64,000 nucleotides of DNA, taken from assembly GCA_964505555.1 (NCBI GenBank), contig CAZDIO010000102.1:13355-77354 (forward strand), written 5' to 3'. Numbering within the stretch: position 1 is the first letter of the stretch; each line of letters starts with the position of its first letter. The stretch is from an uncultured Bdellovibrionales bacterium. Its GTDB lineage: Bacteria; Bdellovibrionota_C; UBA2361; SZUA-149; CAZDIO01. The notes under the pieces were generated by a model. It was not told the origin of the DNA. It saw only the letters and a list, made by a program, of their open reading frames with translations, and ran no database searches. Of this stretch, positions 27,422 to 63,217 are shown piece after piece. A program made the translations under genes and the position numbers.

Positions 27422-29185
27422 GTGTCACTTCTTTACCGCGATCTTCGGAGCTTTCTCCAAGCACTTCAAAAAGAAAAGGTGCTTGTGGAGATTCATGCGC
27501 CAGTGGACCCACACTTAGAGCTTGCAGAAATTCATCGCAGAGTTATCGAACAAAACGGACCTGCTCTTTTATTTACTCAGGTAAAAGGAGGTCGTTATCC
27601 GGTTGTTACAAATCTCTTTGGAACAAAAAAACGGGTGGATCTCGCCTTTGGTCAAAACGGTCCTGCTCTTGTTCAGCAAGCCGTAGAGCTCGTATGGGAG
27701 CTTTTTCCCCCAAGCTACTCAGCACTTTGGGAGAAACGAAATCTGCTCAAACAATTCTTCTCTTTGGGCAGCGACTCAATTAAAAATGCTCCTGTCCTTG
27801 AGGTCCATGAAAGCCCGCCAATGTTATCTCAGCTCCCTCTTCTTACCACCTGGGAACAAGATGGTGGACCGTTTATAACACTCCCTCTCGTGTACACTGA
27901 GCACCCAGAGACTGGCATTTCAAATCTCGGCATCTATCGCATGCAGCGCTACGACGATCAAACCACCGGGATGCATATGCAGATCGGAAAAGGCGGGGGA
28001 TTTCATCTTGCCCGTGCAAAAGAGTTAGGGAAAAAACTCCCGGTGAATGTTTTTGTAGGAGGCGCCCCAGCAACAATTCTTGCCGCTATTGCTCCATTAC
28101 CTGAAAATATCCCAGAGATTCTCCTTGCCTCGTTTGTGCTTGGGGAAAAGCTTCGTGTTACAAAAAACCCTGCTGGTTCCCTACCCCTCTTTGCGGATGC
28201 GGAGTTTGCGCTTACAGGTTTTGTTGATCCTTTAGAAACTCTTCCAGAAGGACCATTTGGTGATCACTACGGGTATTATTCGCTCAAGCATGATTTCCCC
28301 GTATTTCGTTGCCAGTCAGTATTTCATCGAAAAGACGCGATCTATCCGGCAACCGTCGTTGGAAAACCACGACAGGAGGATTTTTTTATTGGCGATTACT
28401 TACAGGAACTCCTCGCCCCAATTTTTCCAATCGTCATGCCCACGATAAAAAATATCTGGAGTTACGGCGAAACCGGTTTTCATTCCCTTGCTGCTGCCGT
28501 AATTACAGAACGTTATAAGAGAGAAGCAATGGTCAGCGCTTTTCGAATCCTTGGAGAAGGTCAGTTGTCACTAACAAAGTTTCTCCTTCTTGTTGATCAA
28601 GCACTTGATTTAAAAGATTTCCGCTCTGTCTTTGAGCATGTTCTTGAACGAGCAGATTTTCGCTCCGATCTCTACGTATTTTCTCACACTTCGATGGATA
28701 CTCTTGATTATACCGGTCCAAGACTCAATGAAGGGAGTAAAGGGGTGCTCCTCGGAATTGGAAACCCAATTCGTTCACTCCCTGCTGAGTTTCATGAAAC
28801 ACCACCAAATGATATTGATGCCGTTTTTGTGTTTTGCCGGGGATGTCTTGTCATCAGTGGACCAAGCTACACTGCGGATAAAGATGCTCCCCAACGTCTT
28901 GCAAATCATCCCGCATTTTCAAAGTGGCCAATAATAGTCCTCTGCGATAACGCTGAATTTACTGCAAAAGAAAGTAGCTCATTTCTTTGGAGTACGTTTA
29001 CTCGATTTGAGCCCGCTTCAGATATCTATGCAAAGCAGGTATCTCTTCGAGCTTTACATCCAAGTTTTGAATCTCCGATCGTCATTGATTCGCGAATGAA
29101 GCCAAATTATCCTGAAGAACTTTTTTGTGATCCAAACACAAAAAAACTCGTCGACGATCGCTGGTCGGAATACTTTAAAAGCTAG
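27422..29185 (+). CDS. UbiD-family (prenylated-FMN) decarboxylase, long menaquinone-type form
   Basis: 587 aa with a GTG start. The N-terminus DLRSFLQALQKEKVLVEIHAPVDPHLELAEIHRRV and the blocks PLVYTEHPETG..NLGIYRMQ and GGAPA are typical of UbiD. Confidence 0.8.
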   Translation: MSLLYRDLRSFLQALQKEKVLVEIHAPVDPHLELAEIHRRVIEQNGPALLFTQVKGGRYPVVTNLFGTKKRVDLAFGQNGPALVQQAVELVWELFPPSYSALWEKRNLLKQFFSLGSDSIKNAPVLEVHESPPMLSQLPLLTTWEQDGGPFITLPLVYTEHPETGISNLGIYRMQRYDDQTTGMHMQIGKGGGFHLARAKELGKKLPVNVFVGGAPATILAAIAPLPENIPEILLASFVLGEKLRVTKNPAGSLPLFADAEFALTGFVDPLETLPEGPFGDHYGYYSLKHDFPVFRCQSVFHRKDAIYPATVVGKPRQEDFFIGDYLQELLAPIFPIVMPTIKNIWSYGETGFHSLAAAVITERYKREAMVSAFRILGEGQLSLTKFLLLVDQALDLKDFRSVFEHVLERADFRSDLYVFSHTSMDTLDYTGPRLNEGSKGVLLGIGNPIRSLPAEFHETPPNDIDAVFVFCRGCLVISGPSYTADKDAPQRLANHPAFSKWPIIVLCDNAEFTAKESSSFLWSTFTRFEPASDIYAKQVSLRALHPSFESPIVIDSRMKPNYPEELFCDPNTKKLVDDRWSEYFKS

Positions 29186-29194
29186 AACCATCCT

Positions 29195-29335
29195 ACGGCC
29201 ATTAAATTAAGGATCTGAAAGAAAGATCTATAGAACCACAGAGACACAGAGCCGCAGAGAAGATTAATAAAATCCCTTTCCTCTGTGTCTCTGCGCCTCT
29301 GTGGTTTAATAAAGAATCTTTAACTTAATGGCCGT
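29195..29335. repeat. B-type palindromic intergenic element, copy B1
   Basis: Outer inverted repeat acggccattaaattaag / cttaacttaatggccgt. It encloses ccacagagacacagagccgcagagaag ... ctctgtgtctctgcgcctctgtgg. It starts 10 nt after the UbiD-family stop. Confidence 0.85.
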
Positions 29336-29352
29336 GAGAATCCTCCTAACGT

Positions 29353-29428
29353 TAGCTGTAACAAGAACCCCGGTCGTTGCGAGCCGGGAAACCTCCGCTC
29401 GCAACGACAGGGGTTCTTGTTACAGCTA
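29353..29428. repeat. C-type palindromic element, copy C1 (76-bp near-perfect hairpin)
   Basis: tagctgtaacaagaaccccggtcgttgcgagc ... gctcgcaacgacaggggttcttgttacagcta, with a single mismatch in 32-bp arms. Confidence 0.85.
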
Positions 29429-29501
29429 AAGTGGAATTGCTTTTAGTGTTTAAAATCTTATCGTGAGGACGCGTTGACTAGTGCTAGAACAACTCGAATG
29501 T

Positions 29502-29675
29502 TTAATTGCCGTGCATCGCGTTTTCCATCTCTGTTGCAGTATGTTCCAGATCTTGATTTAACGATTGGCCAAAGTTTGCAACTCCTGCCAAACAAACAAG
29601 CAACACAGAAGCTGCAAGTAGCAGATACTCAAGTAACGATGCTCCACGCTCGTTTTTTCGAATGTTCAATACCAT
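29502..29675 (-). CDS. flp: Flp-family type IVb (Tad) prepilin, 57 aa
   Basis: Own translation: MVLNIRKNERGASLLEYLLLAASVLLVCLAGVANFGQSLNQDLEHTATEMENAMHGN. It carries the Flp motif G/ASxxEYxLLxA followed by a hydrophobic helix. SD aggagagg lies 2 nt before the ATG. I checked it triplet by triplet and found no internal stop. It falls below the track's size cutoff; track ORF 29474-29677 (+) is its antisense shadow. Confidence 0.75.
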   Translation of the reverse strand: MVLNIRKNERGASLLEYLLLAASVLLVCLAGVANFGQSLNQDLEHTATEMENAMHGN

Positions 29676-29822
29676 AACCTCTCCTTTCCGGTGGCTAACC
29701 CCCTTCCAGCCTTATTATGCACGCGAATGCCTAAGGAATTAATCGAGAAATTATGGGAAAATCTTTAGATAAACTTGAAATCTTTGAATTGAGAAAAATA
29801 CTTAACTTACTGAAATAACTAG

Positions 29823-30071
29823 TTAATTACTCCAGTACTGCCCACCCTTTTTAGTAACTCCCCGCCTAAACTGCCAATCTTTCCATGCAAAGGCGAGAAA
29901 AAACATCCCAGATACAATAAACAAACTAGCAACCATAGCCGCAAGAATCCGTGGAAACTCAAGGATCAGTAACCCAAGTGCCACAAAACAAATTCCGAGG
30001 GTGAAAAACATTGAAGTCAGCCCACCCCAAAAATTTGATGCTCTTTGAAAAAACACAACTTGTCGAAACAT
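29823..30071 (-). CDS. Small membrane protein (2-3 TM), unknown function
   Basis: 82 aa with two long hydrophobic segments (GGLTSMFFTLGICFVALGLLILEF; MVASLFIVSGMFFLAFAW). Confidence 0.4.
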   Translation of the reverse strand: MFRQVVFFQRASNFWGGLTSMFFTLGICFVALGLLILEFPRILAAMVASLFIVSGMFFLAFAWKDWQFRRGVTKKGGQYWSN

Positions 30072-30336
30072 CTTTTTATCTCTTACGTAATTAATCTATT
30101 TGAAGTCTGCTATCATCTCGTAAGCACCCCTTGGAAGATAAGGACGTAAGCCAACTTTGGCAAGAGCCGCACCAAGAAAAGCTCTCTTCTGAAGATAGCT
30201 GGGCAAACAGCATTTGATAAAAACTATCGTCAAATACGGTAAATCCGTCGCTACCCCTTCCTGTAGTAGCACTGGGTGTAGATAGAGATACTATCAAAAA
30301 GGGGGGTAAGTGTCATTCCTACCCTTTGGGAATAAC

Positions 30337-30376
30337 AAAGAGGCAGTGGGGTAGCGTTCTACCCTACTGCCTCTTT
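30337..30376 (-). terminator. Stem-loop immediately downstream of the flagellin gene
   Basis: 18-bp stem aaagaggcagtggggtag / ctaccctactgcctcttt (one mismatch) with a 4-nt loop, 20 nt after the flagellin stop. The U-tract on the minus strand is poor (gttatt); the T-run lies on the plus-strand side. Confidence 0.35.
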
Positions 30377-30395
30377 AATAGTCTTTTTTAATTGT

Positions 30396-31259
30396 CTACT
30401 GCAGCAACGTCAACGCCAAGGCTGGCTGTTGATTTGCTTGTGCTAATACTGAAGCACTTGCTTGCTGGAGAATATTTAGTCGCGTAAGTTCCGCCGCTTC
30501 GAACGCTACGTCAACGTCACGGATTCGACTTTCTGCAGCGAGGAAGTTTTCTCGAGCCACTTGCAAGTTACTAATCGCCACATTCAGCCGACTCTCGGTA
30601 GAACCCAATGTTCCTCGAGACGCTGTCAAACTTCCGATGGCGAGGTTAATAGCATCAAGAGCTGATCGTGCAGAGATCTGAGATTCATTCGCCGTTGCCG
30701 CCAAGATCGAAAACAACGGTATAGAACTCCCCTCAACTGCCAACCCAATTGATGCCAAGGTAGCAGAAACTGCAGAGTAGGATACCTGTGAGGTAGTCTG
30801 CCCATCAAACCCTACCTGAAACACCGTCTGTGCTCCTCCAGAGAGAAGGTTTACACCGTTAAATTCAGTTGTTAAGGCGATTCGCTCAATTTCGCTTGAG
30901 AGCGCGAGAAACTCTAAATGCAACGCAGAACGTTGGGTGTTACTAAATACACCGTTGGCTGATTGTTCAGCAAGCTCTGCAAGCCTTGTTAATACGTTTC
31001 CGATCTGCTCCATCGCACCGTCAGTAATGGAGATCATCGAAACACCATCGCTTGCGTTTCGTATGGCGACAGTAGCTACTCGAGAATCTGAACGCAGCTG
31101 ATCGGCGATCGCAAGTCCAGCAGCATCGTCTGATGCTTTGGTAATTCGCAAACCGGACGACAACCGCTCATAGGCTTTCTGTAAACGATCCGTTGTTGAA
31201 CTTAAGTTTCTCTGCGCAGTAAGCGAGGAAACGTTAGTCCGTATATTAATTGTACCCAT
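30396..31259 (-). CDS. fliC: Flagellin (short form, no hypervariable domain)
   Basis: N-terminal INIRTNVSSLTAQRNL...RLSSGLRITKASDDAAGLAIA and C-terminal LTRLNILQQASASVLAQANQQPALALTLLQ. SD aaggaggg. Confidence 0.9.
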   Translation of the reverse strand: MGTINIRTNVSSLTAQRNLSSTTDRLQKAYERLSSGLRITKASDDAAGLAIADQLRSDSRVATVAIRNASDGVSMISITDGAMEQIGNVLTRLAELAEQSANGVFSNTQRSALHLEFLALSSEIERIALTTEFNGVNLLSGGAQTVFQVGFDGQTTSQVSYSAVSATLASIGLAVEGSSIPLFSILAATANESQISARSALDAINLAIGSLTASRGTLGSTESRLNVAISNLQVARENFLAAESRIRDVDVAFEAAELTRLNILQQASASVLAQANQQPALALTLLQ

Positions 31260-31451: not shown

Positions 31452-31467
31452 AGCACTTCTCGTGCCA
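31452..31467 (-). promoter_or_regulatory. Sigma-54-type (-24/-12) promoter candidate upstream of flagellin
   Basis: The minus strand reads TGGCACGAGAAGTGCT, which has GG-N10-GC spacing and a TGGCACG -24 box (consensus TGGCAC-N5-TTGCW). It lies 19 nt after the SLT gene stop and about 190 nt upstream of the flagellin ATG. Confidence 0.4.
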
Positions 31468-31485: not shown

Positions 31486-32490
31486 TTAGGCGATATTTTG
31501 AAATGGAGTTTCCCGTTTGAGTGCGGCTCGAAGTTCTGCAACACGCGTCACATAAGCCCGAGTACTCGCGGGTAAGTGCGGTTCGATGCTTTCAAAGTTT
31601 GTCGGATCTTTTCCTAAACGAAGTGCCTTCGCTTGTGCTTTTGCAACATTTCCTTCACCTGCGTTAAAGGCAGCGATGGCAAGTTTTTCCAAATCGTCGG
31701 CACTTTTAGCCGGCACGGTTTTTAATCCCGGTCTTAAAAATGTTTCTCGACTAAAAATGTCGTGGAGTTTTCGTAAATACCCCACTCCTAAGTGTGCATT
31801 GAGTCGGGGATCAAAGGGATCATAACCTGCAGGCATTTTGTAACGAACAAGCATCTCACTTGCGGTTTGATCCAGAAGCTGAAATAGCCCCTTTGTTTCA
31901 TGACCATCTTTACTCACCACATGTGGCCTCAGTGATGACTCTGCTTTCGCAACCGCAATACTTAGCTCAGGATCTACACCATGGTACTTCCCTGCTGTCT
32001 TAATAATCTCCTTTATATCCTGACGAGAGTAATCGCTATAAGGCTTAATACTTGCTCGATCTGGGTACACCCTCTTAGCGCTTACAAAAAGTGGGGTGAT
32101 CGGCTTTTCTACTTTTTCTACCGCTGATATTTTTTTGACACTCTCGCTCACCGGATTGACACGGAGCGAGGCATGAATAACCCCACTACTTCCACTTCCA
32201 GAAACTGCAGTAGCGTTCTTTATTAAGGGAGGAAGGTCTGCTTCAAGCATACCGTGCTCTTTGGTGTTAAGATTAGAAACTATCTCACCTGAAGGATTTA
32301 TGGAGGGTGTAGCTTGCTTTAAGTCTTCAGAAGGAGTTGATTTTGCAGCACGCTTTTCAATATCTGAAAGGAGCTCAGAGAAATCCTTCTGATTTGAGCC
32401 ATGGGTGGCCGTATCATTACCGGAGCGACCCCTTGGGGAGTCGATCCTGTTTTGATTTTTCTCGTAGCCTACATTAAATATCGTTGTCAT
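31486..32490 (-). CDS. Lytic transglycosylase (SLT domain) with a long low-complexity N-terminal region
   Basis: C-terminal SLT catalytic block AVAKAESSLRPHVVSKDGHETKGLFQLLD, plus AAFNAGEGNV. The N-terminal ~150 aa are hydrophilic and unassigned. Confidence 0.8.
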   Translation of the reverse strand: MTTIFNVGYEKNQNRIDSPRGRSGNDTATHGSNQKDFSELLSDIEKRAAKSTPSEDLKQATPSINPSGEIVSNLNTKEHGMLEADLPPLIKNATAVSGSGSSGVIHASLRVNPVSESVKKISAVEKVEKPITPLFVSAKRVYPDRASIKPYSDYSRQDIKEIIKTAGKYHGVDPELSIAVAKAESSLRPHVVSKDGHETKGLFQLLDQTASEMLVRYKMPAGYDPFDPRLNAHLGVGYLRKLHDIFSRETFLRPGLKTVPAKSADDLEKLAIAAFNAGEGNVAKAQAKALRLGKDPTNFESIEPHLPASTRAYVTRVAELRAALKRETPFQNIA

Positions 32491-35387: not shown

Positions 35388-36614
35388 CTACATCCGAGAA
35401 ACCATTGCCTCAGCAAACCCTGAGCAGGACACCTCGGTCGGTTTCTCCATTCCTCGGGCAAGGTCGTATGTGACGATCCCCTCCCCGATTGTTTTAGCAA
35501 AGGAATCCTCAATAAGTTTTCCAACCTCTGTCCACCCAAGATGCTCAAACATCATCTTCCCAGAGAGCATTAACGAACCGGGGTTGACCTTATCCTTTCC
35601 TGCATACTTCGGAGCAGTACCGTGCGTTGCTTCAAAAATGGAGGCTTCAACACCGATATTTGCTCCCGGTGCAAGACCAAGTCCTCCAACTTGAGCAGCA
35701 AGTGCGTCAGAGAGATAATCTCCATTTAAGTTCGTGGTGGCGATTACTGAATAGTCCTTCGGTCGGGTTTGAACCTGTTGAAACATGTTATCTGCGATAC
35801 AGTCCTTAATGAGGATCTTCCCTGGTGGCACAGCTCCGTTATGATTTTTGTTTACCTCTTCTTCTGAGATCGTAAAGGGAGCAAACTTCTCTTTTGCAAG
35901 TTTATACCCCCACTCACGAAACCCTCCTTCGGTAAACTTCATAATATTACCTTTGTGAACAAGGGTAACACTGGTGCATCTCATCGCCACCGCATACTCA
36001 ATGGCCATCGCAATTAATCTTTTTGAACCAAACTCACTAATCGGTTTAATCCCTATCGCACTCCCCTCTCGAATTTTTTTCCCTGAGATCTCTTCAATAG
36101 TTTGTGCGAGTTTTTTTGCCTCAGCGCTTCCGGCCTGAAATTCAATCCCCGCATAGACATCTTCTGTGTTTTCGCGAAAGACGATCATGTTTACATCTTG
36201 AGGACGTTTTGCTGGACTAGGCACTCCAGGAAAATATCGAATTGGCCGCACACAAGCGTAGAGATCAAGAACTTGACGAAGCGTTACATTAATTGAACGC
36301 ACCCCTCCCCCAACCGGTGTTGTGAGCGGACCTTTGATCGCAACTTTGTGTTCCTTAATGGCTGTTAAGGTATCATCTGGAAGCCAATTCCCGGTTTGAT
36401 TAAAGGATTTCTCTCCTGCAAGAATCTCAACCCAGGTAACTGATCTCTTTCCTTGAAAGGCACGTTTTATTGCAGCATCAAACACCATCTGTGAAGCTCG
36501 CCACACATCGGGTCCAACCCCGTCCCCTTCAATGTATGGGATCAGCACCTGGTCAGGAACTCGCAACTTCCCTCCCTCACCAAGTGTTATTTTCTGTGCG
36601 CTTCCTTCAGCCAT
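35388..36614 (-). CDS. icd: Isocitrate dehydrogenase (NADP-dependent, homodimeric bacterial type)
   Basis: Blocks [22 protein letters not shown] and [27 protein letters not shown]. The 408-aa length fits. Confidence 0.92.
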
Positions 36615-36657: not shown

Positions 36658-38235
36658 CTAAACGCTACGATTCCTTTCTCGTTTTCTTTTCCAAGTTTCA
36701 AAGTCTACTACCGCAATTTTTTTTGCAAGCTCCTCACGAACACATCCTTCAACCGCTTCATGAAGACTTCTTCGATCAAGAGCGGTTTTTAAGCAGTTCA
36801 TCTTCTTTTCAACCTGATCATAGAGGTTTGAAAGAGACTCAGAAGAGAGTGTTTTTCGATAGCGATCGACTTCGGTAGAGAGGTATTCCTGATACTCTTT
36901 TTTCTCAACTGGATTGGCCTCTCCCCGCCCGCTAGAGATTGGGGCTTTTGGAAAGTCCCGCCCAGTATTTTTAAGGATTTTCTCTTCAAAACTCCGGGGA
37001 ATAATGAATTTATGTGGAGTTTCTACTGCCCGATAGAGAAAACCTACCCGATTTTTTGAGACTTTCGTATCATTTGTTTGCACAAGAAAATCGTAATAGG
37101 AGATGATTTTATCAACTTGTAAAAGTTCTGCGGCGTTTTTTTCACTGAGCAGCCGTTTTGCTTGCGAGAGATGAATGCCTCGCGAAAGCAGAGCTTCAAT
37201 GGCTCCTTGTCGTTGTGATTCTAGATCAGTAGAACTGCGTTGGGAGGAATCTTTTTGAAAAACAGGGGGCGAAGAAAGGATAAAGCTTCCTTGCTGCGTG
37301 TGATTTCTAGGAAGAGGGCTCTCTGTTTGCTGGAGATGTTTTTGAGATACGATCTCTTTTCCGGAATGAAAGCGCACAACGGTCTCTACGCCCCTACCTG
37401 CAAACTCATAACTTGAGAGAAACCCAAGCGCTTTTAACTCCTCGCACGCTGGTTCAATTTGTTGCTTAATCTGGGAGATGTATTGATAACTTCGAGAAAG
37501 TCCTAACTTCTCAAAGGCAAAGGTAACAAGTGGTTTTTCAATACTTGATTTGTAGTAAAAATGCTTATCAAGATACCGGTAGAGCCTTCGACTTACAGCA
37601 CTTCGAAGTGAGAAATAAAGGGTTAAATCAAGCTTTTTTATAAACCCTGATTTAAAAGAATGAAAAAGTGCCTCACTCCAAATAAAATAACTCTTTGAAG
37701 CCTCAGCCCCAGAGAGGGCTTTGTTCCCTCGCCCATCGTTTATTTCGTAGGCATCGATAATTCCGAAATTTCTTGTTTGATAGGCTTTTGAAGCATTATC
37801 AAAAAACGCATTTGCTGCCCGAATTCGAACCCCGCTTAAGCGATCAAGTGATTTTGTAAGGCGGGAGTAGCTTCGCCCTTCTGTGGTCCAGCGTAAGATT
37901 CCTAAAAGCTCATACCGGGTAAAATATACCTTTCGGTTTCGAAACCCTTGATCCATCGTTAACCGCATCAAGCCAAGAAGGACATCATCATCCGTAGCGG
38001 TGGGGAGTCCAAACTTGTCTGCCCCGGTAATAATCCACTGGCGTTCAATCACCTCCCCACTGGGGAGCCGTTGGTTGTCACGAAACTCAAGGGTTTTTAC
38101 CTTTGAGTTTGTGCGTGTCGAGAGAACCGCGAGGGGAAACTCTGCAAGGTTCATCTCATCACGTGAGGTAAGCACTACCTCGGATGAGGAGACTTCACGA
38201 TCTTCGGCTCTTTGTTGGTAGAGGGTTTGCTGCAT
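36658..38235 (-). CDS. Replication initiator protein A-like (plasmid-type RepA)
   Basis: The N-terminal region EMNLAEFPLAVLSTR...WIITGADKFGLPTATDDDVLLGLMRL matches my recollection of the 'replication initiator protein A' family. It is divergent from parAB across a 0.9-kb non-coding region. Confidence 0.6.
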   Translation of the reverse strand: MQQTLYQQRAEDREVSSSEVVLTSRDEMNLAEFPLAVLSTRTNSKVKTLEFRDNQRLPSGEVIERQWIITGADKFGLPTATDDDVLLGLMRLTMDQGFRNRKVYFTRYELLGILRWTTEGRSYSRLTKSLDRLSGVRIRAANAFFDNASKAYQTRNFGIIDAYEINDGRGNKALSGAEASKSYFIWSEALFHSFKSGFIKKLDLTLYFSLRSAVSRRLYRYLDKHFYYKSSIEKPLVTFAFEKLGLSRSYQYISQIKQQIEPACEELKALGFLSSYEFAGRGVETVVRFHSGKEIVSQKHLQQTESPLPRNHTQQGSFILSSPPVFQKDSSQRSSTDLESQRQGAIEALLSRGIHLSQAKRLLSEKNAAELLQVDKIISYYDFLVQTNDTKVSKNRVGFLYRAVETPHKFIIPRSFEEKILKNTGRDFPKAPISSGRGEANPVEKKEYQEYLSTEVDRYRKTLSSESLSNLYDQVEKKMNCLKTALDRRSLHEAVEGCVREELAKKIAVVDFETWKRKRERNRSV

Positions 38236-39136
38236 GAAAAAAAATGAAACAAAAAAATTTTAAATTAACTTCAAGTCGTTTGTTATTTTGGTACAACGTA
38301 CATCATAGTTCTTCAACAAGAAGTTTTTTTATAAGTACGTACGTTAGGAGAGAAATTATTCAATCTTTCTAGTAAGTTAAGCCAGAAAATTTCTTTCGAT
38401 TCCCGAATCTTTTGGGCTCAGATCACGATGGACTTGAAGTCAATTCACTTGAGCACTTATCTCATTTCATGAGATTTTTATTCTCCTGCCTAACTTTCTT
38501 ACTTCGACTCTCGACATTGTGAAACCAAAAGCGCGAGATTTTTATGTAAGGCTCTCTGGAGCCTCTAACATGAGTCAGATAGCCAAACATTCCGGAGAAA
38601 ACGGTAGGTGGTCACGGTCATTAAGTTAGTTCCTGTCCATAAAAGCCAATTTTGAGTCCAAGGTCGATTGAACGGCCACTACTTCTAAACTTACTCTGTG
38701 GTTTTATAAAATCTTCTTTCAGACCCTTAATGACCGTGGGTAAGAAACTCTATTTTAGTAAAGTCTCTTAGTTCATTACTCGAACCCTTATTTCAATACA
38801 CGCCTATTTGACCATTTTTGGTTATTCCATTTCACGAACAGCAGCCAAACAAAAACCACAAGATATTCTAACATATTGAAATTATTAATATAATCAGATA
38901 TTCGTGGTTTAATTGACCTCCAAAGATCGCATTATTCTGGGAATGTTCGAGCTTCGAAATAAGTACTGATCACGTTTATAAGCGAGCTTTTGAAAGATGA
39001 TTATTTCAAAGCACGCTACTTTTTGGCCACTAGGTAGGTTTCTTTACTGTTTGGAAGCTTTAGTTTAAACCAGTTATTGTTTAATTTAACCTCTGCCAAA
39101 ATCTCAACTCTTGAGTAACGAAGCTGTAAGGTGGCC
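38236..39136. other. Candidate replication-origin / partition-site region (non-coding)
   Basis: This is the longest ORF-free stretch in the window. It is visibly AT-rich (A/T runs at 38236-38275 and 38870-38905) and has short palindromes at 38459-38475 (atctcatttcatgagat) and 38549-38564 (aggctctctggagcct). The RepA-like gene and parA flank it. I could not define clean iterons, DnaA boxes or a full parS by eye. Confidence 0.35.
38613..38738. repeat. B-type element, decayed copy (B2)
   Basis: Outer inverted repeat cacggtcattaag / cttaatgaccgtg. The right half, ctctgtggttttataaaatcttctttcagacccttaatgaccgtg, parallels B1 and B3; the left core is eroded. Confidence 0.6.
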
Positions 39137-39913
39137 ATGGCAAAAGTCTTTGCAATAGTGAATCAAAAGGGGGGAGTTGGAAAAACTACCACCGCTGCAA
39201 ATTTGGCCGCCGCGCTATCTGAGCGAGGTCAAAAAGTGCTTGTTATTGATCTTGATGCTCAAGCAAATCTCTCTGCTCATTTTGGAAGTTCCGTAGATGA
39301 TCAGAGTGAGCAGCTTACAATGTATGATGTGCTCAGGCACAACGCCCCGATTGAAAAAGCAATAATAAACCTCTCTTCGAACTTAAGTATCGTTCCTGCA
39401 AGCCTCCTACTAAGTGCTGCAGATTTAGAGCTTGGTGGTGTTATCGGTCGTGAGTTACTTCTTAAAAAAGCTCTTCAACCGGTAATTGATGACTATGATT
39501 ACACGATCATTGATTGCCCACCCTCACTGGGGATGCTCTCCCTCAATGGGCTTGTTGCTGCTTCACGAGTTATCGTTCCTGTTCAAAGTGAGTTTTTAGC
39601 CCTTCACGGCGTAAGGCAGCTTCTTGATACGATTGACCAGGTACGAAGTGCCTACAACCCCTTACTTGCTGTGGGTGGAGTTCTTCTCTGTCTTCATGAT
39701 TCAAGAAGGAGACTGGCGCGGAGTGTTGCCGATACGGTGCGCGAATATTTTGGAGATCTTGTTTTTGAAACTGTCATTCGCACAAACGTTGCCCTTGCTG
39801 AAGCACCTGCCCAGGGGGACTCAATTTTTCAATACGACCGCCGCTCAAGCGGTGCTGAAGATTATGCTAGCCTTGCAGAGGAGATACTAAGCCGTGGCAA
39901 AAAAGAAGGTTAA
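39137..39913 (+). CDS. parA: ParA/Soj-type partition ATPase
   Basis: Deviant Walker A NQKGGVGKTTTA; size and colinearity are those of chromosomal Soj. I prefer ATG 39137 (MAKVFAIVNQKGG) to the track's GTG 39131. Confidence 0.9.
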   Translation: MAKVFAIVNQKGGVGKTTTAANLAAALSERGQKVLVIDLDAQANLSAHFGSSVDDQSEQLTMYDVLRHNAPIEKAIINLSSNLSIVPASLLLSAADLELGGVIGRELLLKKALQPVIDDYDYTIIDCPPSLGMLSLNGLVAASRVIVPVQSEFLALHGVRQLLDTIDQVRSAYNPLLAVGGVLLCLHDSRRRLARSVADTVREYFGDLVFETVIRTNVALAEAPAQGDSIFQYDRRSSGAEDYASLAEEILSRGKKEG

Positions 39914-40814
39914 ATTCAGTGTAAACCCACTTCTTGGGGGACCAAGTCTTGCATCACGAGCAAAGATGGGGAGCCCTTATCGGGAGCTTTTAATCGACGA
40001 GATCGATTTTGATCCTGATCAACCGCGACGAGTATTTAATGAAGAGCGACTTCAAGAGCTCGCTGATTCAATTAAAGAACACGGAATCATCTCACCAATA
40101 CTTGTTAAAGTAACAGAAGGGGGAACCTATAAGCTTGTATCTGGAGAGAGAAGACTTCGTGCCTCAAAAATTGCTGGATTAGAATCGATCCCCGCAGTTA
40201 TTGAAGACGATGATAAAAGTAGTGATGTAACCCTTCCTAAGCAGCTTGTAGAAAATCTCCAACGAGAAGATCTCACCGTAATGGAGAGGGCGATCGCTAT
40301 TGGCCAACTACGAGATGCTTACAAATTGAGCATTCGTGAGATCTCCTCAAAGCTTTCCATTTCAAAAGGACTCGTTCAGAGAAGCCTTGAAGTTCTCGAT
40401 CTCCCAGACGATCTTCAAGCAGCGTTAATAAACGGTGCCTCAGAGACGAAGATTCTCGTTTTAGCGAAAGTTTCGAATCGTGAATTGAGAAAAGAATTTA
40501 TCGCTCAACTTGATAATTTCACCCGAGCACAACTTGAAGAAGAGGTAGATCGGGTTACGACACTCTTAAATGGCGACAAAGAAGAGGTGTACCACGGTGG
40601 TACACCTCGTAGTCGAAAAAATGGAAGAAATAAACTTTCCCCTCAAGATGAGCAGTTAATTAATGATTTAAAAAACAAACTAGGAACAAGAGTTTCTTTA
40701 ATGCGCAGTCGTGGCAAAGAGGGGCAGGGGAAGCTGATGATCGAGTTCTATTCAGATAACGATCTAAGCGAGATCTTTCGACGACTTTGTCGAACCGCTA
40801 GCGATTCTCTTTAA
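39894..40814 (+). CDS. parB: ParB/Spo0J-type partition protein
   Basis: ParB-box blocks GIISPILV and VSGERRLRASKIAG, plus an HTH region. It overlaps parA by 20 nt. Confidence 0.9.
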   Translation: MAKKKVKFSVNPLLGGPSLASRAKMGSPYRELLIDEIDFDPDQPRRVFNEERLQELADSIKEHGIISPILVKVTEGGTYKLVSGERRLRASKIAGLESIPAVIEDDDKSSDVTLPKQLVENLQREDLTVMERAIAIGQLRDAYKLSIREISSKLSISKGLVQRSLEVLDLPDDLQAALINGASETKILVLAKVSNRELRKEFIAQLDNFTRAQLEEEVDRVTTLLNGDKEEVYHGGTPRSRKNGRNKLSPQDEQLINDLKNKLGTRVSLMRSRGKEGQGKLMIEFYSDNDLSEIFRRLCRTASDSL

Positions 40815-44020: not shown

Positions 44021-45376
44021 ATGATCGTTACTGATTCACCATTTCGCACGCAATATAGCGCCAATAACGTTGCAATTCGAAACGGAGCAACAAGTACTAC
44101 GCCGGCGCAATTTAGTAATCTTTCTTTTCTTCGATCGACACCACCTTCTTTACCTTCAAGCAATCTCCTTGCCCCATCAAGTAGCGGAGGATTTGTTTCT
44201 CAAGTGCAGTCGATGCTGCAGCAAGTTTCGGTGCTGATGGATCTCATCGGTGCCGCAAGACAATCAGATCAAAGTGCTGGGGTTAGTCTCCTCGATGGGG
44301 CGAAACTCTTTTCTCAAAATGTTTCTCAGGAGCTTTTTAACCTTCAGACAAGAGGAGGTATCGGAGGGGTTTTTGATGCTGTTCCGACCTCTATAGATAG
44401 TCTTGGTACTGCCGCTCAACAGTACGTTCTTGGGAACCTCAAGCGAGAGTTTTTTGACGCAGTTGGTGAGGCGTTTGGGGTGGATGTTTCACAGCTTTCT
44501 GTAACAGATCTTGCCAATTTGGCTTATGAAAGCGTTTTTGGAGAGGGAACATCGCTCTCTAGTACCCTCTCAGATGGGGTGGCAGGAATCTTCTCCGGTC
44601 AGGATCCCTTTGTAGCAGGAGAACTTAGTGGAGAAATTGGTGGAGAAATAAGCACTGAAGTAGGCGGGGCAACTTCAGGAATTGGCCAATTTACAGGCGC
44701 TTTAGCAACCGCGTATTCTCTCTATGGAATAATTAATGACTGGGGAAAGAGCACCCCAGCCATGGGTGCGATGCGAGGTGCTACGGCTGGAGCGTACATC
44801 GGGAGTATTATTCCAGGAGTTGGAACTCTTATCGGAGGTGCCATCGGTGGGGTTGCGGGGGCGATCTCTGGATTGTTTCATAGTGGGAAGCATAAAAACC
44901 AGATTCAACGCGATCAGGTTCGAGAGTTTTTAAGAAATGCCCAAATTATCGATTCAGATAACTCCCTTCAGTTAGCAAATGGTGAACGTTTTGATATCGG
45001 AAAAGATGGAGGTGCTCGCTATCTTGGACTTGACGGAGTTGAGAGACGACCCTACGTGACTGACCCTTCAAATCCACTTACCGCTGAGGCGATAGGGCTT
45101 GTAAATCCGTTAGCAATAATTCTCACCGGAGGTGATCCTGGACTTTCTTCAGCTTTTGCAGGGTATTTTAGTAATGCCATCGTCAGTAACGCACAAGATC
45201 TCGAAGGCGTCCGCCAAAATGCCTTGGCGATATTCTCAAAATTTCAGGTTACCCCAGAGCAATTGATCGCTGGCTTAGAAAATCTTACTGCCTCCGGCAA
45301 AATCCCCCCAGAAGATTTTGCTGCATACGCAAACGGGGTAAGAACTCTCCTTGAAGGGTTTTCTTCACCTTCATAA
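44021..45376 (+). CDS. Glycine-zipper-containing protein of unknown function; candidate secreted pore-former/effector
   Basis: 451 aa. The N-terminus is Ser/Thr/Pro-rich with no hydrophobic signal (SPFRTQYSANNVAIRNGATSTTPAQFSNLSFLRSTPPSLPSS). The central segment GAMRGATAGAYIGSIIPGVGTLIGGAIGGVAGAISGLF is a GxxxG ladder. SD gggagg. Confidence 0.6.
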   Translation: MIVTDSPFRTQYSANNVAIRNGATSTTPAQFSNLSFLRSTPPSLPSSNLLAPSSSGGFVSQVQSMLQQVSVLMDLIGAARQSDQSAGVSLLDGAKLFSQNVSQELFNLQTRGGIGGVFDAVPTSIDSLGTAAQQYVLGNLKREFFDAVGEAFGVDVSQLSVTDLANLAYESVFGEGTSLSSTLSDGVAGIFSGQDPFVAGELSGEIGGEISTEVGGATSGIGQFTGALATAYSLYGIINDWGKSTPAMGAMRGATAGAYIGSIIPGVGTLIGGAIGGVAGAISGLFHSGKHKNQIQRDQVREFLRNAQIIDSDNSLQLANGERFDIGKDGGARYLGLDGVERRPYVTDPSNPLTAEAIGLVNPLAIILTGGDPGLSSAFAGYFSNAIVSNAQDLEGVRQNALAIFSKFQVTPEQLIAGLENLTASGKIPPEDFAAYANGVRTLLEGFSSPS

Positions 45377-61649: not shown

Positions 61650-63070
61650 AGATCGTTATTCTTCTAAGTTTTTTTCTTCCAGGTTTAGTGCTCTTCTACG
61701 GCGCACGCATTGATTTCGTGTTGAAGGTTCTTTTTGCTCTCGTCTACTCAATGGGAATTACCGTGCTTCTGTATTTAACAATTCTTGTTATCTCACCAGC
61801 ACCGATCGGGACAAACCTCACACTGACAATGCTTTTTGGGATAATGCTTAGTATTTACCTGCGAACAGCTGTTTTTTCCGAAGTAAAGAGAGAACATTTC
61901 CCGGATAATAAGAATCATCAAACGATAAAAAATATTGTGTTTGGATGCTCTTGTCTTCTTTTAGGTGTTCACCTGCTTTCAACACTTGCTGCAATCAAGA
62001 TCTCACCAGGAGTTGAGTGGGATGAGTTTGTTATTTGGAATATTCGGGGAAGGAGTATCTTCCAAACACAATCGTTAGCCGCAAATGTAAACTTCTTAGA
62101 TTATCCAGGATACCCCCCTCTCTGGCCTGCTCTTCTTTCAATCTGTTGGTATTTTGATGAACATTGTACCTATTTTCTTTCCCCCATTCTTTTAATGTTT
62201 ACAGTGCTTTTCTGCCTGCGGTGGATGCAGGAGCGAAGTCGATCAACAGTATTTCAGTTTCTTCTTCTTGGGTTTGCTCCAATAGTATATGGGCACTTCT
62301 TTCTTTGGGGAAACTCCTATCAACTGTATATCCCGTATGCAAATGTATGTGCGGGATGTTTTTTTACGATCGGTGTTCTCTGCTCTCTCTCGTATCTAGA
62401 AACAAAAGCACCACACGAGCTACTTCTTGGAGCGCTGAACTTGGCAGTAACCGTGTTGGTTCGTCCAGAAAGTTTGATCCATGTGTTGATTTTTTTTGGA
62501 TTGTTTACCCCAGTTCTTGTCAAGACCTTTCAAAAAGCGGGGATGGGAAAAAAAATAATTACCAAACGGGTTGTTCAACTGTTTTGTCCTGCAGGTGGTT
62601 TTTGGATCGTCTGGTCGGGATATCGAACGCTTTTTAAACTTGAAAATATCGGAGATCGGTACTTACAACGAGGAATTTCAGAGACATTTGCCATGTCTCT
62701 ATCTGACATAGTGTTTAAAATAAAATCTATTTTTGCCTACAGTTTTACACCATCTCGGCTTATTACTCCTTTTGAAAAGGAATTTTGTTTTTTACTGTTT
62801 CTTGTTTTCTTTATCTTAGGAAGTGGGATGTATTTTGTGGCAAAAAAGAGAGCGATGTTTCCTTCGCTATTTTTAGGGGTGTTGGTTTTTCTGCAGATAA
62901 GTGCGGTAATGATGATCTACTTAGTAACTTCAAACGTTAAGCCAATTGATTGGTGGTTAGTAACAGGCTACTGGCGAATGACCGCTTCTTACATGCTCTT
63001 ACTTTTTGTTTTTCTCTTTGAAACAGCCAATGGGATATTTTCTAGAGTAGAACAACATCACGGCGATTAG
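61646..63070 (+). CDS. Polytopic membrane protein, GT-C-like
   Basis: I trimmed the start to ATG 61646 (MKIVILLSFFLPGLVLFYG...), which forms an ATGA overlap with the upstream stop. About 12 TM helices. Its stop codon lies inside repeat B3. Confidence 0.5.
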   Translation: MKIVILLSFFLPGLVLFYGARIDFVLKVLFALVYSMGITVLLYLTILVISPAPIGTNLTLTMLFGIMLSIYLRTAVFSEVKREHFPDNKNHQTIKNIVFGCSCLLLGVHLLSTLAAIKISPGVEWDEFVIWNIRGRSIFQTQSLAANVNFLDYPGYPPLWPALLSICWYFDEHCTYFLSPILLMFTVLFCLRWMQERSRSTVFQFLLLGFAPIVYGHFFLWGNSYQLYIPYANVCAGCFFTIGVLCSLSYLETKAPHELLLGALNLAVTVLVRPESLIHVLIFFGLFTPVLVKTFQKAGMGKKIITKRVVQLFCPAGGFWIVWSGYRTLFKLENIGDRYLQRGISETFAMSLSDIVFKIKSIFAYSFTPSRLITPFEKEFCFLLFLVFFILGSGMYFVAKKRAMFPSLFLGVLVFLQISAVMMIYLVTSNVKPIDWWLVTGYWRMTASYMLLLFVFLFETANGIFSRVEQHHGD

Positions 63071-63217
63071 TTAGGGTTCTGGAAGAAAGATTATAAAACC
63101 ACAGAGACACAGAGTCGCAGAGAAGATCAACAAAATCCTTTTCTCCGTATTCTATCTCTGTGTCTCTGTGTCTCTGCGTCTCTGTGGTTTTATTAAAAAT
63201 CTTTAATTTATGGCTGT
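63060..63217. repeat. B-type palindromic element, copy B3
   Basis: acggcgattagttagggttctggaagaaagattataaaaccacagagacacagagtcgcagagaag ... ctctgtgtctctgtgtctctgcgtctctgtggttttattaaaaatctttaatttatggctgt. It is colinear with B1, and its left end overlaps the last codons and stop of the upstream CDS. Confidence 0.85.

What the first reader, a model, noticed from the sequence alone, without database searches (positions are those of the whole stretch)
29502..29675. Unannotated orphan Flp-type pilin gene
A 57-codon minus-strand ORF with a good SD encodes MVLNIRKNERG/ASLLEYLLLAASVLLVCLAG... This is the Flp prepilin signature: G followed by xxxxEY and a hydrophobic helix. It is too short for the supplied ORF track, whose 29474-29677 plus-strand ORF is its mirror. 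No tad/cpa assembly genes (ATPase, secretin, TadBC, prepilin peptidase) lie in the window. The gene sits between palindromic repeats and a flagellin gene.
Basis: partly seen in the sequence, partly recalled or inferred. Interest (0 to 1): 0.55.

Follow-up and report, generated by a model that had tools for sequence, protein, structure and literature searches.

The report
Orphan Flp-type (Tad) pilin gene
A real, conserved 57-codon gene encodes a small Flp-type pilin precursor that lies far from any pilus-assembly genes, an ordinary arrangement already known in other bacteria.

Summary
The ORF at 29502-29675 (minus strand) is real and is a Flp-family (type IVc/Tad) prepilin. It has an 11-residue basic leader, the motif G11|ASLLEY, a hydrophobic helix and a predicted 46-residue mature peptide. 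Five relatives (47-65% identity, from other metagenomes) keep the reading frame, its length and the G/E/Y residues, while synonymous sites are near saturation. The plus-strand mirror ORF is broken in three of the five. More distant relatives include one beside a prepilin peptidase and tadE. Profile searches place the two solved Tad pilins as top PDB hits, in register with their mature N-terminus. The window holds no Tad genes, and neither do the ±10 kb flanks of three relatives. The conserved neighbourhood is an 82-aa membrane protein, then Flp, then a convergent UbiD-family gene, usually near a flagellin gene. All six loci carry a sigma-28-like element (TAAAG-N17-CGA) upstream of Flp. Whether the genome has Tad machinery could not be tested. 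Orphan flp genes, an unannotated one, and FliA-controlled flp genes are already described. This is a new member of a known kind, of modest interest.

The parts
29502..29675 (-). Flp-family prepilin CDS: 57 codons plus stop, 6.2 kDa
   Evidence: The ORF is listed. Pfam Flp_Fap gives E=1.6e-5. Five relatives conserve it, with pN/pS 0.33-0.65 while pS is 0.55-0.89.
29643..29675 (-). Predicted leader peptide M1-G11 (MVLNIRKNERG, pI 10.8), ending in the cleavage-site glycine
   Evidence: G11 is invariant in all alignments. The mature N-terminus of the solved Tad pilins aligns to A12. Cleavage itself is inferred.
29505..29642 (-). Predicted mature pilin A12-N57: 46 aa, 4.87 kDa, pI 4.2, with E5 and Y6 of the mature peptide, a hydrophobic helix and an acidic C-terminal tail
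   Evidence: Physical properties are. AlphaFold2 predicts a single helix over residues 9-55 with mean pLDDT 85.6.
29678..29687 (-). Shine-Dalgarno sequence AAAGGAGAGG
   Evidence: Read directly from the sequence.
29739..29767 (-). Sigma-28 (FliA)-like promoter element TAAAGATT-n12-CTCGATTAA, ending 63 nt upstream of the ATG
   Evidence: Each of the six related loci has exactly one AAG-N17-CGA[TC] match in the TM82-Flp intergenic region, and each region has a 0.6-4% chance of a match under shuffling. The E. coli consensus is TAAAGTTT-n11-GCCGATAA (PMC2859248). Promoter function is inferred.
29823..30071 (-). Conserved upstream neighbour: 82-aa membrane protein with two predicted helices and unknown function (called TM82 here)
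   Evidence: Homologues at 49-72% identity lie directly upstream of Flp in all six loci. The only family hits are weak ones to DUF3096 and HdeD.
29349..29432 (.). Hairpin with a 36-bp stem, 70 nt downstream of the Flp stop; a possible terminator shared with the convergent UbiD-family gene
   Evidence: Seen (region z-score -12.9) and unique in the window. It has no U-tract, so a terminator role is inferred.
29195..29335 (.). Nested palindromic MITE/REP-like element
   Evidence: Seen. A second copy at about 63050-63200 is 83% identical. It is absent in L003, where the Flp and UbiD stop codons are 3 nt apart.
27422..29185 (+). Convergent UbiD-family (menaquinone-type) decarboxylase gene, a conserved synteny anchor given as context only
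   Evidence: Family hits are. It is convergent with Flp in L003, L004, L006, L009 and L012.

Best explanation
The gene encodes a Flp-family (type IVc/Tad) prepilin. It appears to have its own promoter, which resembles a sigma-28 (flagellar FliA-type) promoter, and a strong ribosome-binding site. The 57-aa product would insert into the inner membrane. A TadV/CpaA-type aspartic prepilin peptidase would cut it after Gly11. The 46-residue mature peptide (ASLLEY...), a single long helix, would then be polymerised into a thin Tad-type pilus by an ATPase, platform and secretin encoded elsewhere in the genome. It would serve either as the major pilin or as an extra, differently regulated pilin. Shown here: the gene is real, is under purifying selection, belongs to the Flp family by sequence, and is orphan within at least 64 kb. 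Inferred: cleavage, assembly, the existence of the machinery, and sigma-28 control.
For: The ORF, its SD sequence and the motif are confirmed. Pfam Flp_Fap gives E=1.6e-5 with near-full profile coverage. An exhaustive phmmer search returned 32 hits, nearly all 54-79-aa proteins with the G|(A/S/T)xxEY motif, and 20 of 23 scanned sequences (query included) match Flp_Fap. Relative P0009 (48% identity) lies directly upstream of Peptidase_A24 and TadE genes. L007 carries two tandem flp genes after a ParA/MinD-type ATPase gene that I read as CpaE/TadZ-like. PDB profile searches rank the solved Tad pilins 8u2b and 8u1k first (E=1.7e-6 with the broad profile, 0.065 with the six-member clade profile), aligned from their mature residue 1 to A12. 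AlphaFold2 predicts one helix over residues 9-55 with pLDDT 85.6. Six clade members keep a length of 57-61 aa and invariant G11, E16 and Y17, with pN well below a nearly saturated pS. The antisense mirror frame carries stops in L004, L006 and L009. The sigma-28-like element is conserved in all six loci, and the window encodes a FliA/WhiG-like sigma factor at 46483-47196. Precedent exists: non-TAD flp genes that are functional, and FliA control of flp genes in Bdellovibrio (PMC5430801), and an orphan flp in S. meliloti (PMC10934763).
Against: No Tad ATPase, secretin, TadB/C, TadE/F or A24 peptidase gene lies in the 64-kb window. None lies within ±10 kb of the orthologues in L004, L006 or L009. 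The rest of the genome could not be searched. The Pfam score is below the gathering threshold (25.1 versus 32.2 bits), and two clade members get no Pfam hit at E<=0.01. The clade-only PDB profile hit is marginal (E=0.065). The sigma-28-like element has a spacer 1 nt longer than the E. coli consensus, and its -10 box matches 5 of 8 positions. The window's sigma factor scores well below the FliA/WhiG family cut-off (83.8 versus 189.6 bits).
Confidence: 0.68

Rival explanations
1. The peptide descends from Flp but no longer builds a pilus. In this reading the lineage has no Tad machinery, and the peptide acts as a small membrane-anchored or secreted factor together with the always-adjacent 82-aa membrane protein, possibly as part of the flagellar (sigma-28) regulon.
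For: The TM82-Flp pair is strictly conserved in six loci, and no Tad gene lies nearby in any of them. The conserved promoter-like element resembles flagellar late promoters. The clade has its own invariant LAG(V/I)AN-G signature. In B. bacteriovorus no TadV prepilin peptidase was found in the genome (PMC5430801), so Flp biology without canonical parts has precedent.
Against: G11, E16 and Y17 are the residues that define the Flp processing and assembly motif, and they are invariant at a divergence where synonymous sites are near saturation. That pattern is most simply explained by continued use of a prepilin peptidase and an assembly machine. Orphan flp genes in genomes that do carry tad loci are common.
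Confidence: 0.15
2. The peptide is a substrate of a different type IV filament machine, such as a type IVa pilus or a T2SS-like system with a PilD-type peptidase, and not of a Tad system.
For: E at mature position 5 is shared by all type IV pilins. No Tad machinery was seen.
Against: The mature size is 46 aa. The mature N-terminus is Ala, not Phe or Met. The EY pair, the Flp_Fap match and the top PDB hits to Tad pilins are all Flp-specific. No type IVa pilus or T2SS genes are in the window either.
Confidence: 0.1
3. The ORF is spurious: either a chance ORF or the shadow of the plus-strand ORF 29474-29677.
For: It is very short, and an antisense ORF of 67 codons overlaps it.
Against: The sense frame is open, 57-61 codons long and conserved in six loci with pN well below pS. 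The mirror frame has 2-3 stops in three of the relatives. The sense ORF also has a strong SD sequence and a significant family match.
Confidence: 0.02

Closest known systems
Flp/Fap pilins of Tad (type IVc) pili, for example the solved Tad pilins in PDB 8u1k (PilA) and 8u2b/8ucr (Flp family type IVb pilin), Pfam PF04964
   Same: It is a short prepilin with a basic leader ending in Gly, the mature N-terminal xxxxEY motif, a hydrophobic helix and a conserved mid-helix Gly. Its predicted mature length is 46 aa, against 45 aa in the solved pilins. It is predicted to be a single helix.
   Different: It is not next to any tad/cpa gene. It scores below Pfam's gathering threshold. It has a clade-specific LEYLLLA...LAG(V/I)AN-G signature and an acidic C-terminal tail.
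Non-TAD-associated flp genes of Bdellovibrio and related predators (flp3, and flp4/bd4000, an ORF that had been unannotated), and FliA-regulated flp1/flp2 (PMC5430801)
   Same: It is an orphan flp gene that ORF tracks can miss, in a genome with flagellin genes and a FliA-like sigma factor. A sigma-28-like element lies upstream of it.
   Different: In Bdellovibrio the TAD-linked flp genes are the FliA-controlled ones and the orphan flp4 is not. Here the orphan gene carries the sigma-28-like element. Taxonomic relatedness was not established.
Sinorhizobium meliloti orphan pilin smc02446, co-transcribed with the hypothetical transmembrane protein smc02447 (PMC10934763)
   Same: It is an orphan Flp pilin gene paired with a small membrane-protein gene of unknown function.
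   Different: Here the membrane-protein gene is upstream, with a separate promoter-like element between the two genes. Homology between TM82 and SMc02447 was not tested.
TadE/TadF pseudopilins and type IVa pilins or T2SS pseudopilins
   Same: They share an N-terminal class III signal peptide logic: Gly at -1 and Glu at +5.
   Different: Those proteins are 100-200 aa with globular domains and a Phe or Met at +1 (type IVa pilins), or they carry the TadE N-terminal domain. No such Pfam hit was found here.

Membership tests
Flp/Fap pilin (PF04964; type IVc/Tad pilin) | Short prepilin of about 50-80 aa | tested here: met
   The protein is 57 aa, and the clade relatives are 57-61 aa.
Flp/Fap pilin (PF04964; type IVc/Tad pilin) | Basic leader ending in Gly, followed by the Flp motif G|xxxxEY and then a stretch of hydrophobic residues (as defined in PMC5430801) | tested here: met
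   The sequence reads MVLNIRKNERG|ASLLEY, followed by LLLAASVLLVCLAGVA. G11, E16 and Y17 are invariant in alignments of 6, 11 and 25 sequences.
Flp/Fap pilin (PF04964; type IVc/Tad pilin) | Match to the Pfam Flp_Fap profile at or above the gathering score | tested here: inconclusive
   The match is E=1.6e-5 and 25.1 bits against a cut-off of 32.2, covering profile positions 3-44 of 46. A relative embedded in a Tad context (P0009) also falls just below the cut-off at 31.2 bits. Of 23 scanned sequences, 20 match at E<=0.01.
Flp/Fap pilin (PF04964; type IVc/Tad pilin) | Sequence homology to experimentally solved Tad pilins, in register with their mature N-terminus | tested here: met
   The profile of the query plus 10 relatives hits 8u2b at E=1.7e-6 and 8u1k at E=6.8e-6. 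The clade-only profile gives the same two top hits at E=0.065 and 0.081. Chain residue 1 aligns to A12.
Flp/Fap pilin (PF04964; type IVc/Tad pilin) | Helical mature subunit without a globular domain | tested here: met
   AlphaFold2 predicts one helix over residues 9-55 with mean pLDDT 85.6. Foldseek gave no PDB match, and a single helix offers little to match on.
Flp/Fap pilin (PF04964; type IVc/Tad pilin) | Genetic linkage to tad/cpa genes (A24 prepilin peptidase, TadA/CpaF ATPase, TadB/C, RcpA/CpaC secretin) | tested here: not met
   None is in the 64-kb window or within ±10 kb in L004, L006 and L009. Linkage is usual but not obligatory, since orphan flp genes are documented.
Flp/Fap pilin (PF04964; type IVc/Tad pilin) | Tad machinery and a prepilin peptidase present somewhere in the same genome | not testable with these tools
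   The source genome was not retrievable.
Flp/Fap pilin (PF04964; type IVc/Tad pilin) | Leader cleavage after Gly and assembly into a pilus | not testable with these tools
   This needs mass spectrometry, microscopy or genetics.
TadE/TadF pseudopilins (PF07811) | TadE-like N-terminal domain in a protein of about 130-200 aa | tested here: not met
   There is no PF07811 hit at E<=10, and the protein is 57 aa.
Type IVa pilins and T2SS pseudopilins | G|(F/M)xxxE N-terminal methylation motif plus a globular C-terminal domain of more than 100 aa | tested here: not met
   The mature N-terminus is Ala, the mature length is 46 aa, and there is no N_methyl or pilin Pfam hit.

The most novel reading that the evidence does not exclude
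The conserved pair of TM82 and the Flp-like peptide could be a self-contained module controlled by sigma-28. It would sit in an uncultivated lineage that carries flagellin and a non-flagellar type III secretion cluster but no Tad machinery. The Flp-like peptide would then have a function other than building a pilus, for example a membrane or secreted factor tied to the motile phase.
Probability: 0.1. Interest if true: 0.6.

Novelty: new member of a known kind. Interest (0 to 1): 0.25.

Why it matters
The finding adds a small, easily missed surface-filament gene to the annotation of an uncultivated bacterium. It suggests that this lineage may make Tad-type pili and may express the pilin together with late flagellar genes. 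Its practical value is as an annotation correction and as a pointer to look for a tad locus in the full genome. It does not change what is known about Flp pilins.

Tried and rejected
- The word-indexed homologue search with the 57-aa protein found only the protein itself.
- The genome-contig scan with the clade alignment returned one locus, L005. I read it as a chance match to the signal peptide of a ComEA-like protein, not a Flp.
- A first, broader alignment was too diverse for back-translation.
- The taxon stays unresolved. The nearest named Icd relatives are only 64-68% identical and come from several phyla: Thermoanaerobaculum and other Acidobacteriota, Silvanigrella, Fluviispira and Vampirovibrio. 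Cluster look-ups gave no organism names. RepA resembles Planctomycetes plasmid RepA at 31-34% identity. Searching the sample accessions in the literature found nothing.
- Foldseek of the single-helix model against the PDB gave no hits.
- Rfam found no RNA family in the window.
- The hit P0008 (949 aa, five 'Flp-like' stretches) is a repetitive sequence, not a Flp.
- A sigma-28-like motif at window 733 probably lies inside a minus-strand coding region that runs off the window, so I dropped it.
- The flagellin gene does not share the Flp promoter-like motif. It has a sigma-54-type element instead.
- The small ORFs next to orphan flp genes in L010 and L015 are not homologous to TM82.

Full report
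**Observation.** The minus-strand ORF at 29502-29675 is present as described. It translates to MVLNIRKNERGASLLEYLLLAASVLLVCLAGVANFGQSLNQDLEHTATEMENAMHGN. A Shine-Dalgarno sequence AAAGGAGAGG has its GGAG 5 nt before the ATG. The plus-strand ORF 29474-29677 is its mirror. A six-frame scan of the window for GxxxxEY followed by hydrophobic residues finds only this one hit inside an open ORF. The exact protein is already in the public protein collection, from an 81,020-bp NCBI-derived contig and two short Logan contigs, with PF04964 precomputed.

**Is it a real gene?** An exhaustive phmmer search of 1.84 billion representatives gave 32 hits at E<=1e-3. The closest hits and follow-up look-ups define a small clade of six loci:
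- the window itself;
- L003 (ENA);
- L004 (JGI, 103-kb contig);
- L006 (FKKE01002414.1, 92 kb);
- L009 (Logan, 68 kb);
- L012 (Logan).

Their Flp proteins are 57-61 aa and 47-65% identical to the query. G11, E16, Y17, L19, L20, L29, A30, G31, A33, N34 and G36 are invariant.

Over the 40 codons from the cleavage-site Gly, pS is 0.55-0.89, which is near saturation. pN is 0.23-0.41. The minus-strand frame is therefore under purifying selection. The mirror frame carries 2-3 stop codons in L004, L006 and L009. The 'spurious ORF' reading is rejected.

**Family.** Several tests point to the Flp family:
- Pfam Flp_Fap matches at E=1.6e-5 over profile positions 3-44 of 46. The 25.1 bits are below the gathering score of 32.2.
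- Sub-threshold scores appear normal for divergent Flp proteins. P0009 (48% identical) lies directly upstream of Peptidase_A24 and TadE genes, yet scores 31.2 bits.
- Of 23 sequences scanned (the query and 22 phmmer relatives), 20 match Flp_Fap at E<=0.01.
- L007 has two tandem flp genes behind a ParA/MinD-type ATPase gene that I read as CpaE/TadZ-like.
- A profile of the query and ten relatives ranks the two solved Tad pilins first among 177,635 PDB sequences (8u2b at E=1.7e-6, 8u1k at E=6.8e-6). The clade-only profile gives the same two top hits at E=0.065 and 0.081. In both searches chain residue 1 aligns with A12 of the query.
- The predicted mature peptide is 46 aa, 4,873.5 Da and pI 4.2, against 45 aa for the solved pilins.
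- AlphaFold2 predicts a single helix over residues 9-55 with pLDDT 85.6. Foldseek found nothing, and a lone helix offers little to match on.

**Context.** Pfam and NCBIfam scans covered 41 window ORFs, and I read the remaining larger ORFs as ordinary enzymes. The gene map is:
- a polysaccharide/O-antigen-type gene cluster (about 1-27 kb);
- a UbiD-family decarboxylase gene (27422-29185, plus strand) convergent with Flp;
- an 82-aa membrane-protein gene (29823-30071, minus strand, called TM82 here);
- flagellin (30396-31259, minus strand);
- an SLT transglycosylase gene (31486-32490, minus strand);
- icd (35388-36614, minus strand; its product and its relatives carry the Pfam isocitrate/isopropylmalate dehydrogenase domain, and several relatives are named isocitrate dehydrogenase);
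- RepA (36658-38235, minus strand) and ParAB (39131-40814);
- genes I read as haem-synthesis genes;
- a FliA/WhiG-like sigma factor gene followed by non-flagellar type III secretion genes SctJ, SctQ and SctV (46.4-53 kb).

No Tad ATPase, secretin, TadB/C, TadE/F or A24 peptidase gene is present. The arrangement TM82, then Flp, then convergent UbiD is conserved in all six loci. SLT and flagellin lie upstream in the window, L004, L006 and L009. An aminotransferase gene sits between flagellin and TM82 in L006 and L009. No Tad gene lies within ±10 kb in L004, L006 or L009. Other relatives outside the clade (P0010, P0011, P0017) are also orphans among housekeeping genes.

**Expression signals.**
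- The flagellin gene ends in a strong hairpin (30330-30383).
- Flagellin has a conserved sigma-54-type element, TGGCAC-N5-GTGCT, upstream of it.
- The TM82-Flp intergenic regions align poorly overall (35% mean column identity). Yet each of the six contains exactly one AAG-N17-CGA[TC] element.
- In the window this element reads TAAAGATT-n12-CTCGATTAA (29739-29767). Chance occurrence per region under shuffling is 0.6-4%.
- It resembles the sigma-28 consensus TAAAGTTT-n11-GCCGATAA (PMC2859248), with a spacer one nucleotide longer.
- In the window alone, the related pattern TAAAG-N14-17-CGAT is no more frequent than chance. The evidence is the conservation across loci.
- I infer that Flp has its own sigma-28-type promoter. 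That fits the FliA/WhiG-like sigma factor in the window.
- It also has precedent: FliA controls flp1 and flp2 in Bdellovibrio (PMC5430801).
- Downstream of Flp lie a hairpin with a 36-bp stem and a nested palindromic element. The palindromic element has a second copy near 63.1 kb. These are missing in L003, so they are insertions and not part of the gene.

**Mechanism.** The most likely reading (about 0.68) is a Flp prepilin that a TadV/CpaA-type peptidase cleaves after G11. A Tad machine encoded elsewhere would then polymerise it. It would act either as the major pilin or as an additional, differently regulated pilin. The processing and assembly residues G-1, E5 and Y6 are invariant while synonymous sites are near saturation. 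That is the main indirect argument that such a machine exists. Three rivals remain:
- a non-pilus role together with TM82 in a lineage without Tad machinery (about 0.15);
- use by another type IV filament system (about 0.1);
- a spurious ORF (about 0.02).

**What could not be done.**
- The source genome and its taxon were not recovered.

**Comparison and novelty.**
- Orphan flp genes are documented in Bdellovibrio and related predators. One of them, bd4000, was found as an unannotated intergenic ORF.
- An orphan flp in Sinorhizobium meliloti is co-transcribed with a hypothetical membrane protein.
- The Bdellovibrio paper also notes a non-TAD flp gene in Agrobacterium.
- This locus is therefore a new member of a known kind.
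- What is mildly new is the small uncultivated clade, its conserved TM82-Flp-UbiD arrangement, and the sigma-28-like element upstream of the orphan gene.
- Interest: 0.25.

Noticed in passing
window 31452-31467 (minus strand), between the SLT and flagellin genes; also L006 and L009: A conserved sigma-54-type promoter element, TGGCAC-N5-GTGCT, lies about 190 nt upstream of the flagellin ATG. A conserved TGTCAAGGAGGGT ribosome-binding region is also present. Flagellin and the neighbouring Flp gene therefore appear to use different alternative sigma factors.
   Followed up: partly
window 29195-29335 and about 63050-63200: A nested palindromic, MITE/REP-like element occurs twice in the window at 83% identity. 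The Flp-UbiD intergenic region folds with a z-score of -12.9. The element is absent at the same site in L003.
   Followed up: partly
window 36658-40814; L006 and L009: A plasmid-type RepA gene (closest to Planctomycetes plasmid RepA, 31-34% identity) and ParAB genes lie among housekeeping genes, including icd and genes I read as haem-synthesis genes and serA. In L009, RepA and ParAB lie beside the SLT-flagellin-Flp block, as in the window; in L006 RepA does so too. This suggests a conserved chromid or megaplasmid, or an unusual chromosomal origin. The 895-bp RepA-ParA spacer showed no clear iterons.
   Followed up: partly
window 46483-53146: A FliA/WhiG-like sigma factor gene (below the family cut-off) is followed directly by non-flagellar type III secretion genes: SctJ, an SctQ-like FliN-domain protein, SctV (best PDB and NCBIfam matches are to SctV, ahead of FlhA) and a TPR protein. 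Several small ORFs without family hits lie between them.
   Followed up: partly
window about 950-27400: A large polysaccharide/O-antigen-type cluster is present. It includes Wzz-like, Wzy-like and flippase genes, several glycosyltransferases, methyltransferases, a sulfatase-family protein, and what I read as DegT-type aminotransferases and a split transketolase.
   Followed up: no
L009 9911-10195: In this relative the sigma-28-like element lies 285 nt from the Flp start, against 38-100 nt in the other loci. An extra GC-rich stretch that looks partly palindromic is inserted in the leader. The public gene call there (126 aa, P0007) appears to start too far upstream.
   Followed up: no
L010 10001-10174: A more distant Flp-like gene (P0017, 51% identity over the phmmer match) sits alone between mnmG/gidA and rsmG/gidB, next to parAB and rnpA-yidC. 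These genes usually mark a chromosomal origin region, and no Tad genes lie within ±10 kb.
   Followed up: no
window 44021-45376: A 451-aa ORF rich in Gly, Ser and Ala has only weak glycine-zipper hits. It lies upstream of the type III secretion cluster and its function is unknown.
   Followed up: no
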